Counted from the first letter of the stretch, positions 14,724 to 19,296 are shown. The stretch: 64,000 nucleotides of DNA from Gemmatimonadales bacterium (GCA_035519565.1 DATIWD010000026.1:1074-65073), one strand, 5' to 3'. Numbers and translations are program-made. The notes: a model not told the origin generated them from the sequence alone.

Positions 14724-16291
14724 CAGCGGCCCTGGTGGGGGGTCAGCAGGGCGATGGGCAACACCATCTCCTCCGGCGCCACCCCACCATGAAGGAAGGC
14801 CCCACGGTAGCGGGCCTGATACTCACGCAACTTGGTGGGGTAGACGAAGAACCGGTCGCCGGTGGCCAGCAGCAGGCGGGCATCGGCGCCTCGCTCGGGG
14901 AGTCCGTAGCTCGACAGGTCGTCCACCACGATGGCGGCCTCGGGATCCTCGATCCGGAGGTCGTCGCCGAACTTGTAGCGCAGGTTCAAGGTCGCGTCCC
15001 GCTTGGCGAAGACCGTGGCGGGCGTATGACAGTGGATCCACCCGTGATCGGTGGTGACCAGCACCGGCACGCCGCGGGTGTCCGCCGCGCGGAGCGCGCC
15101 CCAGAGCGGGGAGCGCTCGAACCAGGTCCGGGTCAGGCTCCGCAGGGCCGGCGCGTCCCGCGCGACTTCGAACAGGGTCGAATTCTCGGTCCGCCCGTGG
15201 GTGAGCTGGTCGATGAAATTGAACACCAGCGCCGTGATTCCCGGTTGCGCCAGGTGGGTCGGCAGTCGGCGCAGGAGCGCCTCGCCGTCCTGTGAGGTGA
15301 AGACCTTTTCGTAGCGGACCGGCACGTCCCTTCCAGTCAGCCGCTTCATCTGCCGCTGCAGCAGCTCGCCCTCGTGAGCGTTGAGCGAGGTCTCGTCGGT
15401 GTCCTTCCACCATTCGGGATAGCGCCGGGCCAGCTCGGCCGGGAGGAGCCCACTGAAGATCGCGTTCCGCGCGAACGGCGTGGCGGTCGGGAGAATCGAG
15501 AGGTAGTGGACCGTCTCGATGTCGAACCGGGTCCCGATGATCGGGCGCAGCACCTCCCATTGATCGAGGCGGAGGCAATCCACCACGACCAGCAAGGCCT
15601 TGCCGTGGCGCTCGAGGACCGGCGCCAGGAACTCCGAGCCGATGTCGATGCTCAAGGGCGGGCGACCGGCCCGGTCGCTCCGGAGCCACCGGGGATATTC
15701 CTGGGCCACGAAGTGGGCAAAGTCCCCGCGCAGGCTTCCCTGGAGCGTGCGAAGCGCGTCCTGAAGTCCCGGCTCGTCGGCCTGGCCCAGCCGCACCTCC
15801 CATTCGGCCAGCTCGACCACCAGCGCGATCCACTCGCGCCACCCCATTCCGGCGCGCCGTCCCGCCTCCAACTCGCGGAACCGGGTCGCGAAATCGCGGG
15901 AGAGCCGTTGCTGGCGGATCCGGTCTCCCTCCAGCAGCCGGGTGACCACCGAGAGAATCTGCCGGGGGCTCGCGGGCTTGATGAGATAGTCGGAGATCTC
16001 GGCGCCGATCGCGTCCTTCAGGGTCTCCGGCTCCTCGCTCTTGGTCACCATGACCACCGGCAGGGTCTGATCGATGGCCCGGATGGCCCGGAAGAGATCG
16101 AGTCCGCGCCGGCCCGGCATCTGCTCGTCGAGCAGGACTACCCCATAGGGCTGGCGCTGGAGCAGCACCAGGGCATCGTCGCCGTGCGCGGCACGTTCGA
16201 CCATGAACCCCTGCTGTTCCAGGAACAGGACATGCGAGGTGAGACTCTCCACCTCATCGTCCACCCAGAGAATGCTTCGCGGGCGCGCCAT
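14723..16291 (-). CDS. response regulator with C-terminal PglZ (alkaline-phosphatase-fold) domain, PorX-like
   Basis: Canonical receiver (WVDDE, VVLLDEQMPG, VVMVTK, YLIKP) followed by about 390 aa with a PglZ-like core (LLVVVDCLRLDQW, VTTDHG). Start at ATG 16291. Confidence 0.75.
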   Translation of the reverse strand: MARPRSILWVDDEVESLTSHVLFLEQQGFMVERAAHGDDALVLLQRQPYGVVLLDEQMPGRRGLDLFRAIRAIDQTLPVVMVTKSEEPETLKDAIGAEISDYLIKPASPRQILSVVTRLLEGDRIRQQRLSRDFATRFRELEAGRRAGMGWREWIALVVELAEWEVRLGQADEPGLQDALRTLQGSLRGDFAHFVAQEYPRWLRSDRAGRPPLSIDIGSEFLAPVLERHGKALLVVVDCLRLDQWEVLRPIIGTRFDIETVHYLSILPTATPFARNAIFSGLLPAELARRYPEWWKDTDETSLNAHEGELLQRQMKRLTGRDVPVRYEKVFTSQDGEALLRRLPTHLAQPGITALVFNFIDQLTHGRTENSTLFEVARDAPALRSLTRTWFERSPLWGALRAADTRGVPVLVTTDHGWIHCHTPATVFAKRDATLNLRYKFGDDLRIEDPEAAIVVDDLSSYGLPERGADARLLLATGDRFFVYPTKLREYQARYRGAFLHGGVAPEEMVLPIALLTPHQGR

Positions 16292-16401
16292 GAGGTGAAG
16301 CTTACCGGAGGCGAGGGTGCCGAGCAACGCGCTGGCGGCGGCTGCACCCGCATTCTACATTCCGCTCATCCGATCCGAAGCGCCCCTTCGCGCGATCATC
16401 C

Positions 16402-16779
16402 ATGACCGGTTGGGATCCTGCCAGCACCGAGTTGCTCTCCCTCATGCCACGGACAGCCCGCGGACCGCGGCGGGACGGAGTGTTTGCGCTCTGGCTCATC
16501 GTCCGCGCAGCCCTCGATCTGTTGCTCGACCCGCCGCTATCCGAGCGAGCCCACCGCAAGCGGATCGCGGCATTGGAAGCTCGGCTTTCCAGCTTGAGCC
16601 TCCCTGCCCCGCTCCGTCGAGCCCTGGCCGCCGCTCTGCTTCATCTGCGGGACGCGCGGCCCGAGACCGCGGCCCCGGTGCTGGCTCACCTGGTCGCACC
16701 GGCGAGGGAAACGGTGGGGGCCGAGGCCTCCGAGGCGCTGGCCCTGGCGGCCCGTGCCGCCCGGCAAGGAGGGAGGTAG
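16402..16779 (+). CDS. hypothetical Ala/Leu/Arg-rich helical protein
   Basis: 125 aa, G/C-ending codons dominate. Its TAG is 3 nt before the GTG of the next gene, and its last codons carry that gene's AAGGAGGGAGG Shine-Dalgarno. No recognisable motif. Confidence 0.5.
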   Translation: MTGWDPASTELLSLMPRTARGPRRDGVFALWLIVRAALDLLLDPPLSERAHRKRIAALEARLSSLSLPAPLRRALAAALLHLRDARPETAAPVLAHLVAPARETVGAEASEALALAARAARQGGR

Positions 16780-16782
16780 GCC

Positions 16783-17691
16783 GTGCGGTCCCGCCCGCCT
16801 CGTCGGCCGCCCCATCTCCCAACCTCGGGCAATCCCGAACGCGCCGAGCGACCCTCCGTGCAGGTCCTGGTCGGGCGCATGGACGCCGAAGATCCCCAGG
16901 CGCGCCACCCCGACACGATTCCCACCGGGTTCCCATCGCTGGATCCGGTGCTGGGCGGTGGGCTCCGCAAACAGGACTTCGTCATCCTGACCGGCGACAT
17001 CGGAAGCGGCAAGTCTGCGCTGGGGTTGGCCATCGCGATGCGAAGCGCGATCCGCGGCCATCCCACCGTGGTGCTTTCCGGCGAGATGTCCGAGGATCGG
17101 ATCATGGAGCGCGCTCTCGCAATCGAGGCCCGGTTATCGGTCGACCAGCTGCGCTCCGGCGAGATGAGCGACGAGGCCCGGGCGGCGGTCGGCGCGGCCG
17201 CGGTTCGCCTGCGCGGGCTCCCGCTCATGATCCGGCCGCTGGCGGGAAGGGCGTTCGATGAGGTCACCGACGTGCTCCAGGCGGTGCCGCGACCGGTGCT
17301 GGTGGTAGTGGATTACCTGCAGATGGTGGCCTCGCCTCACGCCGCGGCGACGGCCCAGGAGGAACTGGCCCTGGTGGCCCGCGCGCTCAAGGCCACCGCC
17401 ATCGATCGCGACGTGGTGATCCTGGCCCTGGCCCAACTCCCCCTCCATCACGCCCGCCGCCGCGATCCCCGGCCTCGCCTCGACGACCTGGGCGGCGGCG
17501 GCGCCGTCAAACAGCACGCCGACGTCGTCCTCGCCCTGTATCGCGAAGAGATGTATCAGCCGGGCCAGGGGATGGAGGGCGCCACGGAGCTGATCGTGGC
17601 CAAGAACCGGAATGGGCCCACGGGTTTCGTAGATCTCTATTTCTATCGGAACTGGCTGCGGTTCGAAGACATGATGGACCCGGAGAAGTAG
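16783..17691 (+). CDS. DnaB C-terminal (RecA-fold) domain protein lacking the helicase N-terminal domain
   Basis: Walker A GDIGSGKS and Walker B VLVVVDYLQM. DnaB-like blocks ADVVLALYREEMY, ELIVAKNRNGPTG and FYRNWLRFED. Only about 45 aa precede the ATPase core. Confidence 0.75.
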   Translation: MRSRPPRRPPHLPTSGNPERAERPSVQVLVGRMDAEDPQARHPDTIPTGFPSLDPVLGGGLRKQDFVILTGDIGSGKSALGLAIAMRSAIRGHPTVVLSGEMSEDRIMERALAIEARLSVDQLRSGEMSDEARAAVGAAAVRLRGLPLMIRPLAGRAFDEVTDVLQAVPRPVLVVVDYLQMVASPHAAATAQEELALVARALKATAIDRDVVILALAQLPLHHARRRDPRPRLDDLGGGGAVKQHADVVLALYREEMYQPGQGMEGATELIVAKNRNGPTGFVDLYFYRNWLRFEDMMDPEK

Positions 17692-17703: not shown

Positions 17704-19110
17704 TCACCTCGGTTCACTACCAGACTCCCCGCAGGTCATCCGCTTCTTCAGACTATCCGCGCCAACGCTCTGGCGATCGCGCAGCCCTCGCACGATCAGC
17801 GGAGCCAACTGGTCCGCCAGCAGCTGGTTGGCCAGGCCATTGGGGTGCGTATCGAAAGGGTTCACGGTGAGCTGACCCAGATCGTGACCCAGAAAGGCGT
17901 CGCGAACCGAGACGGCCGGGAGACCGGCACCCAAGAGCCGGCAGACGAAGTGGTCGTACCGCTCCCTCAAGTCGGGATCGGTGGCCGGCGCAATGTCGAA
18001 CGGCACCAGGAGCGCGATTGGGCCCGCGCGGGCTTCTCCCATTAGTCGCTCCACGTCGGCCACATGCTTGGTCACCAGCTCCGGATCCCGATACGGGTCT
18101 TCGACTCCCTGGCCCGCAAAGAACGGGAGGTGCCGGAGCCGGATGTAGATCTCCTGGACCAGATAGGAGTTGAGGAATAGCAGGCGGAGCGGATGCAGGC
18201 GGCCCAGCATCGAGCCCGGATCGGTCAAGGTTCCACGCGGGGTGACCCGTCGCAGGTAGTCGATATCGTTGAAGACGTAGAGCAGGATCAGCACGTCCGG
18301 GTGGAACTGGAGCACGTACTCCATGAAGGGAAACTCGGTGAGCGTGTTCCGATCTCCCTCGCTGGCGTTGATCGAGCGCCATGTCTCACCGGTCTGATCG
18401 GTGAGCCGCCGCGCCAGTCGTTCTCCAACCCGGTCGCTGATGTCGGGGATGCCCCACCCGAAGGCGTAGCTGTCGCCGATCACCGCGATTCGTCGAGTGC
18501 CGTCGGCCGCGGCCGGGGGCGGCTCGACGTCCCGGAACCCGGCCCGGTTCAGCTGCACATGGCGTCGCCCCCAGATCTTGCTGCGATAGGTGGGAAAACC
18601 CTGCGGCGCCGGGGACACGAAGGCCGTGACCCGCGCCACCCCTTCGAGCACGATCCCCGTAGCCGCGACGCTTCCCAACAGGAGTGCCACGTCCCGAAGT
18701 CTGGGCGAGAGTCTGCGACCGGCCAGCGCGGCGCCTACCAGAAGCAGGAGCAGTGCGACCCATTCGAGCGCGGCACTGGGGCCGGTGGATGAGCCGAACA
18801 GGTTGGCTTCGAAGAGGCGGCCGGCCTGCACCGGATCTGCCAGGGCGGCGAAGAGGTAGGCCAGCGACCAGACCAGGAAGGCCCAGTCGAGCAGCGTCAC
18901 GGCCGGCGACCCATCAGCGGCACGGGGGCGGAGCGCCAGGGCGGCGTAGATCACGAGGAGAACCGCCAGGACGAGCCAGACGCCTACAAAGGAAGGCGAC
19001 CATCGGCCCAGGACCGACCGGTTTTCGGCCGAGGTATAGAGACTAAGCGCGATCAGAAGAAACGCGCTGCCCGCGACACGAAGGACCAGCGTCTTGGCGC
19101 GTTGCGTCAT
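17704..19110 (-). CDS. polytopic membrane protein with C-terminal SGNH/GDSL-type hydrolase domain
   Basis: About 190 aa of hydrophobic segments, then IAVIGDSYAFGWG (block I Ser), LYVFNDIDY, and a C-terminal D..H pair (NPFDTHPN). Start at ATG 19110. Confidence 0.6.
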   Translation of the reverse strand: MTQRAKTLVLRVAGSAFLLIALSLYTSAENRSVLGRWSPSFVGVWLVLAVLLVIYAALALRPRAADGSPAVTLLDWAFLVWSLAYLFAALADPVQAGRLFEANLFGSSTGPSAALEWVALLLLLVGAALAGRRLSPRLRDVALLLGSVAATGIVLEGVARVTAFVSPAPQGFPTYRSKIWGRRHVQLNRAGFRDVEPPPAAADGTRRIAVIGDSYAFGWGIPDISDRVGERLARRLTDQTGETWRSINASEGDRNTLTEFPFMEYVLQFHPDVLILLYVFNDIDYLRRVTPRGTLTDPGSMLGRLHPLRLLFLNSYLVQEIYIRLRHLPFFAGQGVEDPYRDPELVTKHVADVERLMGEARAGPIALLVPFDIAPATDPDLRERYDHFVCRLLGAGLPAVSVRDAFLGHDLGQLTVNPFDTHPNGLANQLLADQLAPLIVRGLRDRQSVGADSLKKRMTCGESGSEPR

Positions 19111-19296
19111 GGCATGCAGTCTCCCCAGGCCGTCGGCTGAAGCACCAGCCTCGCCTCCGCAGAGCAAGGCGCGGGCCCAGCCAACATAAACGGGCCCCGA
19201 ACCCCCGGGCCACGAGCCCCGCCGCCTATATCGCGTTGCCGGTCCCTGAGCCGACGGCTAGTTTTCGTCCTGTAAGCACCCCTCCGGGATCGGACC

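What the first reader, a model, noticed from the sequence alone, without database searches (positions are those of the whole stretch)
16402..17691. DnaB C-terminal-domain-only ATPase coupled to a small helical protein
The 302-aa protein aligns by eye with the RecA-like C-terminal half of replicative DnaB (GDIGSGKS, VVVDYLQM, ADVVLALYREEMY, IVAKNRNGPTG, F..NWLRFED). It lacks the about 170-aa N-terminal primase-interaction and collar domain. Two conserved blocks are altered: SQLSR reads AQLPL, and DLRESG reads DLGGGG. It starts 3 nt after a 125-aa Ala/Leu/Arg-rich ORF whose 3' end carries its Shine-Dalgarno, so the pair looks like a two-gene module. It sits divergently from the PorX-like operon. 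It is unlikely to be the replicative helicase, so it may be a loader-like, regulatory or defence ATPase.
Basis: partly seen in the sequence, partly recalled or inferred. Interest (0 to 1): 0.6.

Follow-up and report, generated by a model that had tools for sequence, protein, structure and literature searches.

The report
N-domain-less DnaB paralog with small partner
Bacteria of the order Gemmatimonadales carry, besides their normal replication helicase, a shortened and partly degenerate copy of it that is tightly coupled to a small, very basic helical protein of unknown fold; the pair is real and conserved, but the shortened helicase is dispensable and its role is untested.

Summary
ORF 16783-17691 (302 aa) is a DnaB C-terminal (RecA-fold) domain with a linker-like helix but no N-terminal domain. 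It starts 3 nt after a 125-aa ORF (16402-16779).

It is not a split dnaB. The genome has a complete dnaB and a dciA elsewhere. The small protein shows no sequence, profile or fold similarity to the DnaB N-domain or to any known family.

The pair is confined to the order Gemmatimonadales. The small gene is near-universal there (135 of 137 sampled genomes; 0 of 63 elsewhere in the phylum). The DnaB paralog is found in only 94 of 137, and deletion remnants are visible.

In this window the ATP-site residues are intact. Both arginines that contact ssDNA in canonical DnaB are replaced across the whole clade. The Walker A lysine is lost in some lineages, including a genus with closed genomes of 4.4-5.3 Mb.

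Best reading: a dispensable, non-replicative DnaB-derived ring NTPase, probably not a processive translocase, subordinate to the small basic protein. The function is unknown. A link to recombination, defence or helicase loading is not supported.

This scan has already found the same pair in other genomes.

The parts
16402..16779 (+). Small partner gene: 125 aa, pI 11.5, all-helical (7 helices). An orphan family that is near-universal in Gemmatimonadales.
   Evidence: No Pfam/NCBIfam/PHROG/PADLOC hit. 1243 homologous clusters. AF2 pLDDT 93, pTM 0.88. No fold match in PDB or BFVD. Profile found in 135/137 genomes of the order and 0/63 outside it. dN/dS 0.089.
16768..16776 (+). Shine-Dalgarno-like GGAGGGAGG inside the 3' end of the small ORF, 6 nt upstream of the GTG start of the DnaB paralog.
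   Evidence: Sequence. The same-genus genome has ATG at the same position.
16783..17691 (+). DnaB paralog: 302 aa, consisting of a linker-like helix plus the RecA-fold C-terminal domain, with no N-terminal domain.
   Evidence: PF03796 E 1.1e-51. TIGR00665 positions 174-433 only. 35-38% identity to solved DnaB C-terminal domains. Fold match to DnaB ATPase domains, TM 0.80-0.84 normalised by target.
16858..16887 (+). Predicted helix (residues 26-35, VQVLVGRMDA) in the position of the DnaB linker helix.
   Evidence: AF2 model helix 153-162 of the read-through construct, pLDDT about 63-68. The pattern e..V.r.Da is conserved among paralogs. Its role in ring formation is inferred.
16993..17016 (+). 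Walker A GDIGSGKS (Lys77). Intact here, but the lysine is replaced by T/C/S in some lineages.
   Evidence: L139 GAGTS, L140 SVGCS, L141 SVGSS, L143 GSGCS.
17077..17091 (+). SGEMS with the catalytic Glu101 (canonical SLEM).
   Evidence: Invariant in paralogs and canonical DnaB.
17302..17325 (+). Walker B VVVDYLQM (Asp177).
   Evidence: Asp invariant. The residues after it are variable in paralogs.
17431..17502 (+). Motif H3 and DNA-binding loop II, AQLPLHHARRRDPRPRLDDLGGGG. Gln218 is kept here (His in some paralogs). Leu221 stands where canonical DnaB has the Arg of SQLSR, and Gly237 stands where it has the Arg of DLRESG.
   Evidence: Alignment. R to G at 237 is found in 0 of 24 paralogs as Arg. 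The equivalent residues R365 and R381 of BstDnaB lie next to the ssDNA (PMC6318325).
17599..17625 (+). AKNRNGPTG with Lys274 and the arginine finger Arg276.
   Evidence: Invariant in all 24 paralogs and in canonical DnaB. R-finger assignment from PMC6318325.

Best explanation
The locus encodes a lineage-specific two-gene unit of the order Gemmatimonadales. The first gene makes a small, strongly basic, all-helical protein of a fold without known relatives. The second gene makes a paralog of the replicative helicase DnaB, reduced to the linker-like helix and the RecA-fold motor domain. The paralog is not the replicative helicase. It most likely still forms a DnaB-type ring with inter-subunit nucleotide sites, because the trans-acting Lys/Arg finger and the catalytic Glu are invariant. 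It has lost the primase/collar domain and both arginines that grip ssDNA in canonical DnaB, and in some lineages also the Walker A lysine. I therefore read it as an accessory, dispensable, nucleotide-binding ring that is probably not a processive ssDNA translocase. It would act together with, and be subordinate to, the small basic protein, which has a function of its own. Shown: identity, architecture, residue changes, distribution, coupling and dispensability. Inferred: ring formation, loss of translocation, and physical interaction with the small protein. The cellular process it serves is not established. DNA transactions are the default guess from its ancestry and from the basic partner.
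For: DnaB_C domain only. True dnaB and dciA lie elsewhere in the genome. The paralogs form one clade (100/100 support), separated by a long branch from all canonical DnaBs, including those of E. coli and T. aquaticus. The clade is found only in the three families of the order: 66/96, 25/38 and 3/3 genomes, with no paralog-type match in the other nine families. The small-protein profile is found in 95/96, 37/38 and 3/3 genomes, and in 0/63 elsewhere. Coupling: the matched parts lie within 300 nt of each other in 54 of 56 loci that hold both genes. Start/stop gaps run from overlaps to about 40 nt, and called genes in another genus overlap by ATGA. Of 77 informative loci, 19 lack the paralog and 2 hold remnants, while the small gene stays. 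ATP-site residues are kept, and the residues equivalent to R365 and R381 are replaced in the whole clade (PMC6318325). The Walker A lysine is lost in 4 of 24 paralogs examined. dN/dS is 0.075-0.089. The small protein has pI 9.7-11.9 throughout the family.
Against: There are no experimental data of any kind. Loop II still carries conserved arginines (R226, R230 in R..DPRP), so nucleic-acid binding and even translocation cannot be excluded. An AF2 model of the read-through construct gave two well-folded domains joined by a disordered linker, with pTM only 0.66. This gives no confident docking of the small protein on the ATPase, although the test is weak. The small gene's constraint looks the same with or without the paralog, so the two proteins may merely share an operon. 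Loss of the Walker A lysine in some lineages while the rest is conserved could also mean that the function differs between lineages.
Confidence: 0.6

Rival explanations
1. It is an active accessory helicase or branch-migration motor for recombination and repair. It would be analogous to RadA/Sms, working with the neighbouring yebC-ruvC-ruvA-ruvB genes, with the small basic protein as its DNA-targeting or loading factor.
For: The pair lies upstream of yebC-ruvC throughout the order. The ATP-site residues are intact in this genome. RadA is a DnaB-type helicase without the DnaB N-domain (PMC5512693, listed). The partner is basic.
Against: The space between the paralog and yebC holds different, often opposite-strand genes in different genomes: an SGNH gene here, RidA + EamA in another genus, and a lipoprotein-like ORF elsewhere. 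Co-transcription with ruv is therefore not general. The two ssDNA-contacting arginines are gone in every member, and the Walker A lysine is lost in some. The gene was lost in about 30% of genomes. A radA-like ORF already follows dnaB.
Confidence: 0.18
2. It is a regulator or decoy of the replication machinery. A DnaB-like ring or subunit would mix with canonical DnaB or titrate its loader DciA, modulating replication under conditions set by the small protein.
For: It keeps the linker-like helix and the C-terminal domain surface, which are the regions that loaders bind in canonical DnaB (established knowledge from DnaB-DciA and DnaB-DnaC structures such as 8a3v and 6qel, which are among the fold matches). 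A degenerate motor combined with conserved interface residues fits a pseudo-enzyme. dciA and dnaB are present.
Against: There is no direct evidence. The paralog is only 33-38% identical to the genome's own DnaB C-terminal domain and sits on a long branch, so interface compatibility is doubtful. Its dispensability argues against a central control role.
Confidence: 0.12
3. It is a domesticated or decaying remnant of the replication module (loader + helicase) of a mobile element, or an anti-phage defence ATPase.
For: Short DnaB-like proteins that consist of the C-terminal domain exist in phages (phrog_243, a 273-position profile, E 6.8e-31). Loss is patchy and remnants exist. The clade sits on a long branch.
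Against: The chromosomal position is fixed between the PorX-like gene and yebC in all three families. There is no integrase or phage gene nearby, and GC content is like the flanks. Phage relatives are at most 35% identical. There is no PADLOC family above noise. Purifying selection is strong. The small protein resembles no known loader.
Confidence: 0.05
4. It is a split dnaB, with the upstream ORF being the detached N-terminal domain.
For: The two ORFs are in the same frame, separated by one TAG and one codon. Their summed length is about that of DnaB.
Against: A full-length dnaB exists elsewhere. hhalign of the small-protein alignment against Gemmatimonadota DnaB N-domains gives probability 0.14%. 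The confident AF2 model matches no DnaB N-domain structure. The frame relation between the two ORFs differs between genomes.
Confidence: 0.01

Closest known systems
Bacterial replicative helicase DnaB (TIGR00665; structures 4ESV, 2R6A, 2Q6T, 6BBM)
   Same: It shares the RecA-fold C-terminal domain with all SF4 motifs in order. It keeps Walker A, the catalytic Glu, the Walker B Asp, the H3 Gln, the Lys/Arg finger and the C-terminal strand. It is 35-38% identical to solved DnaB C-terminal domains.
   Different: It has no N-terminal globular domain or helical hairpin, so no primase docking and no collar. The Arg of SQLSR and the Arg of DLRESG, which lie next to the ssDNA, are replaced. It scores far below the equivalog cut-off. 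It is dispensable, and a true dnaB coexists with it.
RadA/Sms (DnaB-type recombination helicase)
   Same: A DnaB-like hexameric RecA-fold motor without the DnaB N-domain that acts outside replication. The KNRxG motif resembles RadA's KNRFG (established knowledge; PMC5512693).
   Different: RadA has an N-terminal zinc finger and a C-terminal Lon-like domain, and both are absent here. TIGR00416 matches only at E 1.5e-7 over the P-loop region. A separate radA-like ORF is present.
Short phage DnaB-like helicases (PHROG 243) and the helicase G40P with its loader G39P of phage SPP1
   Same: A C-terminal-domain-sized DnaB-like protein. In SPP1, a small helical protein of about 126 aa is encoded just upstream of the helicase (established knowledge; the G40P ATPase domain 3BH0 is a fold match).
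   Different: The locus is chromosomal, syntenic and vertically inherited in one bacterial order. The small protein has no sequence or fold similarity to G39P or to any PDB or BFVD entry. Phage relatives are at most 35% identical.
RSF1010 RepA-type plasmid helicases (Pfam AAA_25)
   Same: A hexameric DnaB-like helicase built from the RecA-fold core alone. AAA_25 matches at E 1e-11.
   Different: The match is much weaker than to DnaB_C. There is no plasmid context. RepA is an active replicative helicase (established knowledge).

Membership tests
Replicative DnaB (TIGR00665 equivalog) | N-terminal domain (PF00772) with helical hairpin | tested here: not met
   PF00772 occurs only on contig C133 of the genome. 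The model match starts at position 174 of 435. The upstream ORF is not an N-domain.
Replicative DnaB (TIGR00665 equivalog) | Score above the curated equivalog cut-off | tested here: not met
   185.8 bits against a cut-off of 385.25.
Replicative DnaB (TIGR00665 equivalog) | Sole or essential helicase of the genome | tested here: not met
   A complete dnaB is present. The paralog was not found in 43 of 137 genomes of the order.
DnaB_C domain superfamily (PF03796, SF4 RecA-fold motor) | Domain match above the gathering score, with Walker A, catalytic Glu, Walker B Asp and Arg finger | tested here: met
   176.1 bits against a cut-off of 27. Motifs shown.
DnaB_C domain superfamily (PF03796, SF4 RecA-fold motor) | ssDNA-contacting arginines at both ends of loop II (Bst R365, R381) | tested here: not met
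   Leu221 and Gly237 stand at these positions here. No paralog has Arg at the R381 position (PMC6318325).
DnaB_C domain superfamily (PF03796, SF4 RecA-fold motor) | Hexameric ring, ATPase and 5'-3' helicase activity | not testable with these tools
   Needs biochemistry. Only inferred from the conserved trans-acting finger.
RadA/Sms (TIGR00416) | Zinc finger + RecA-like domain with KNRFG + Lon-like C-terminal domain | tested here: not met
   E 1.5e-7, 30.6 bits against a cut-off of 403, matching residues 46-186 only. The protein ends right after the RecA fold.
Known helicase loaders (DciA, DnaC/DnaI, lambda P, G39P, DnaD) - for the small protein | Sequence or fold similarity to a loader family | tested here: not met
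   No Pfam or NCBIfam family at E up to 1, apart from a chance 0.12 hit. Foldseek against PDB gave a best E of 0.66 and TM below 0.4. BFVD gave a best E of 0.5. A DciA gene lies elsewhere in the genome.
Anti-phage defence systems (PADLOC) | Match to a defence protein model, and a variable island context | tested here: not met
   Only P-loop-level hits with E of 2.6e-4 or weaker. The locus is syntenic across the order.

The most novel reading that the evidence does not exclude
The small, strongly basic helical protein is an order-wide signature gene with a fold unlike anything in PDB or BFVD. It could be a new kind of DNA-bound partner or loader for DnaB-type rings. The degenerate paralog would then be a helicase turned into a non-translocating, nucleotide-gated clamp or adaptor that the small protein recruits. 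This would be a pseudo-helicase regulatory module of replication or repair, with the small protein also able to act on the canonical DnaB where the paralog has been lost.
Probability: 0.12. Interest if true: 0.7.

Novelty: new variant of a known kind. Interest (0 to 1): 0.42.

Why it matters
DnaB-family motors outside replication (RadA/Sms, phage helicases) have repeatedly turned out to have distinct mechanisms. This is a clean natural case of a replicative helicase paralog stripped of its N-domain and of its DNA-gripping arginines. It is conserved under purifying selection for the whole history of a bacterial order, yet it is expendable. Its partner belongs to an orphan family with a confidently predicted new helical fold. 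Working out what the pair does would show how a hexameric helicase is re-used as something else, and would assign a function to a near-universal signature gene of a widespread soil order. The practical value is modest: it corrects automatic 'replicative DNA helicase' labels on these genes.

Tried and rejected
1. Split dnaB was rejected. dnaB lies elsewhere, hhalign probability is 0.14%, there is no fold match, and the frames differ between genomes.

2. A 'natural fusion' of the small ORF and the paralog in genome G009 was first taken as Rosetta-stone evidence. A database search found no fused proteins. Close relatives have an intact 132-aa ORF overlapping the paralog start by ATGA. G009 therefore simply carries a frameshift, and this evidence was withdrawn.

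3. AF2 was run on the TAG read-through construct as a proxy for the complex. Both parts fold (pLDDT 88), but pTM is 0.66 and the linker is disordered, so no docking can be claimed. The full-length Foldseek alignments to DnaB (about 440 columns, rmsd about 24 Å) reflect only helix-on-helix matching in the N-terminal part.

4. A profile search of 1.84 billion representative proteins with the small-protein alignment found 445 hits. All are stand-alone proteins of the same size. The few longer ones have no Pfam domain and look like over-extended ORF calls.

5. Phage origin was tested with tblastn against 50,697 phage records, and the best identity was 35%. Defence was tested with PADLOC and gave nothing.

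6. The promoter/terminator scan of the locus found nothing above chance.

The original BstDnaB-ssDNA paper is not held, so the residue roles are cited through PMC6318325.

Full report
**1. What is in the sequence**

ORF 16783-17691 (+, GTG start, 302 aa) follows ORF 16402-16779 (+, ATG, 125 aa) after TAG-GCC. GGAGGGAGG lies at 16768-16776 inside the end of the first ORF.

The 302-aa protein matches Pfam DnaB_C at E 1.1e-51 over residues 46-296. It matches the DnaB equivalog model TIGR00665 only from model position 174 to 433, at 185.8 bits against a cut-off of 385. It is 35-38% identical to the C-terminal domains of solved DnaB helicases.

The small protein matches no family in Pfam, NCBIfam, PHROGs or PADLOC.

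A receiver + PglZ (PorX-type) gene and an msbA-like ABC gene lie divergently upstream. Downstream lie a membrane SGNH hydrolase gene on the opposite strand, then yebC and ruvC. GC content of the pair (0.70-0.73) is close to that of the flanks.

**2. It is not the replicative helicase and not a split dnaB**

The same genome (95% complete) has a full-length dnaB on contig C133. It carries the N-terminal domain PF00772 (112 bits) and DnaB_C (357 bits) in one 487-codon frame, followed by a radA-like ORF. The genome also has a dciA loader gene.

The small protein was modelled with very high confidence (pLDDT 93, pTM 0.88) as seven helices. Foldseek found nothing similar in the PDB (best E 0.66, TM below 0.4), although DnaB N-domains are in that library. 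It also found nothing in the viral library BFVD.

A profile-profile comparison of the small-protein alignment with the N-terminal 200 residues of 15 Gemmatimonadota DnaBs gave probability 0.14%.

In this window the two ORFs happen to be in the same frame. The frame relation differs among relatives (0, +1, +2), and some pairs overlap. Read-through is therefore not the design.

**3. Distribution and linkage**

Both genes have many homologues, and all that carry names are from Gemmatimonadales or Gemmatimonadota.

In an even sample of 200 genomes of the phylum, the paralog clade (E ≤ 1e-45, short frame) was found only in the three families of the window's own order. The counts were 66/96, 25/38 and 3/3. 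The three hits in other families are full-length canonical DnaBs.

A profile of the small protein that includes its very divergent orthologues (about 22% identity) from the second family was found in 95/96, 37/38 and 3/3 genomes of those families. It was found in 0 of 63 genomes of the other nine families. The small gene is thus a near-universal signature of the order, while the paralog is present in about two thirds of it.

Of 77 fetched loci with enough downstream DNA:
- 56 have the paralog. In 54 of them it lies within 300 nt of the small-ORF match.
- 2 hold only C-terminal remnants.
- 19 have none, and the small gene is then followed by other genes or directly by yebC.

Whole-genome searches confirm that the genomes without the paralog have only the canonical dnaB.

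Junctions between the two genes range from 4-nt overlaps (ATGA) to about 40 nt.

Both genes are under purifying selection: dN/dS is 0.089 and 0.075 against the same-genus genome. Identity of the small protein to the window's copy is similar in genomes with and without the paralog.

The unit is therefore real but asymmetric. In the loci I inspected, the paralog always had the small gene directly upstream. The small gene does not need the paralog.

**4. State of the motor**

I aligned 24 paralogs from all three families with 17 canonical DnaBs.

Invariant in both groups: the P-loop glycine, the catalytic Glu (E101 here), the Walker B Asp (D177), the R..RP core of loop II, and the Lys/Arg finger (K274, R276). 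Because the finger acts across a subunit interface, its invariance is the best sequence argument that the paralog still forms a DnaB-like oligomer. This is an inference.

Two changes define the clade:
- The Arg of SQLSR is not conserved (Leu221 here).
- The Arg of DLRESG is Gly237 here, and no paralog has Arg there.

According to PMC6318325, the equivalent residues (R365 and R381 of BstDnaB; R357 and K373 of HpDnaB) sit at the two ends of DNA-binding loop II, next to the ssDNA in the BstDnaB-DNA crystal structure. That paper proposes them to pull the DNA through the pore.

In addition, the Walker A lysine is replaced by Thr, Cys or Ser in all three examined genomes of one genus of the second family (complete genomes of 4.4-5.3 Mb) and in one further genome. 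ATP hydrolysis is therefore not required for whatever keeps the gene in those lineages.

In a maximum-likelihood tree the paralogs form one clade (100/100). A long branch (about 1.7 changes per site) separates it from all canonical DnaBs. The E. coli and T. aquaticus sequences fall among the Gemmatimonadota ones. The paralog is therefore an old, fast-evolving lineage rather than a recent duplicate. Its donor cannot be named. Phage relatives are no closer than 35%.

**5. Does the small protein bind the paralog?**

There is genomic support for a partnership: coupling throughout an order. I could not obtain structural support.

An AF2 model of the TAG read-through construct was built with a block alignment of both families. 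It folded both parts (pLDDT 88) and left residues 126-151 disordered, with pTM 0.66. That value is what two independently placed domains give.

An apparent natural fusion in one genome proved to be a frameshift. No fused protein exists in the database, and close relatives have an intact 132-aa ORF overlapping the paralog start.

The small protein is strongly basic in every lineage (pI 9.7-11.9). It has four invariant residues, G21, R24, R35 and R54. This fits binding to nucleic acid or to an acidic partner, but does not show it.

**6. Context gives little functional guidance**

The block msbA / PorX-like | small / paralog / ... / yebC-ruvC is syntenic in all three families. However, the genes directly flanking the pair vary:
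- Many relatives have a GT9 heptosyltransferase-like gene whose stop overlaps the small ORF start. It is absent here.
- The space between the paralog and yebC holds an SGNH gene here, RidA + EamA in another genus, and a small lipoprotein-like ORF elsewhere, mostly on the opposite strand.

The link to ruvCAB is thus neighbourhood only, not a shared operon in most genomes.

**7. Verdict**

The interpretation 'not the replicative helicase, a two-gene module' is supported. 'Defence' and 'loader-like' find no support.

The most likely nature is a dispensable, partly degenerate DnaB-derived ring NTPase subordinate to an order-specific basic helical protein. The process it serves is unknown. My probabilities are about 0.6 for this reading, 0.18 for an active recombination helicase, 0.12 for a replication regulator or decoy, and 0.05 for a mobile-element remnant or defence.

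This scan had already met the same pair in several other genomes and reached the same general reading. New here:
- the restriction to the order rather than the phylum;
- the quantified dispensability, with remnants;
- the loss of the Walker A lysine in some lineages;
- the assignment of the two altered motifs to the ssDNA-contacting arginines.

Noticed in passing
L009, L011, L012 (junction between small ORF and paralog): In three relatives the paralog's ATG is preceded at 7-8 nt by a TATAAT-like box (TATAAT, TATCTT, TATACT) instead of a Shine-Dalgarno. This suggests a separate promoter and a leaderless mRNA for the paralog in those genomes.
   Followed up: no
L030:4910-6004 and most family-1 loci: A 364-aa heptosyltransferase-like (GT9-type) gene lies between the PorX-like gene and the small ORF, and its end overlaps the small ORF start. 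It is absent at this position in the window, where only about 110 nt separate the two divergent genes.
   Followed up: partly
L135 = G025:C1:574800-576900: One relative carries a third, very divergent full-length DnaB-like gene (515-codon frame, GVPSCGKTT, AQPNDK, DIQGSS) on a very long branch. It is possibly from a mobile element.
   Followed up: no
window 17704-19167 (-): The membrane + GDSL/SGNH hydrolase gene between the paralog and yebC is present only in the window's genus among the loci examined. Other genomes have RidA + EamA or a small lipoprotein-like ORF there, so this slot is a variable spot in an otherwise syntenic block.
   Followed up: partly
L021 (G009:C11): The small ORF of this genome is frameshifted after about residue 75 and runs into the paralog's frame. 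Close relatives have it intact, so this is an assembly error or a very recent mutation.
   Followed up: yes
window 16291-16327 (-): The mechanical ORF of the PorX-like gene starts at TTG 16327, but homologues align only from the ATG at 16291 (MARPRSILWVDDE). The shorter start is more likely.
   Followed up: partly
G000:C133:11709-11903 (L003): A 505-codon frame directly downstream of the true dnaB matches the first 65 positions of DnaB_C. It is probably radA/sms, giving a dnaB-radA gene pair.
   Followed up: no
L066:6374-6562 and L075:6495-6740: Only 63 and 82 C-terminal residues of the paralog remain downstream of an intact small ORF. These are deletion remnants that document the loss in progress.
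   Followed up: partly
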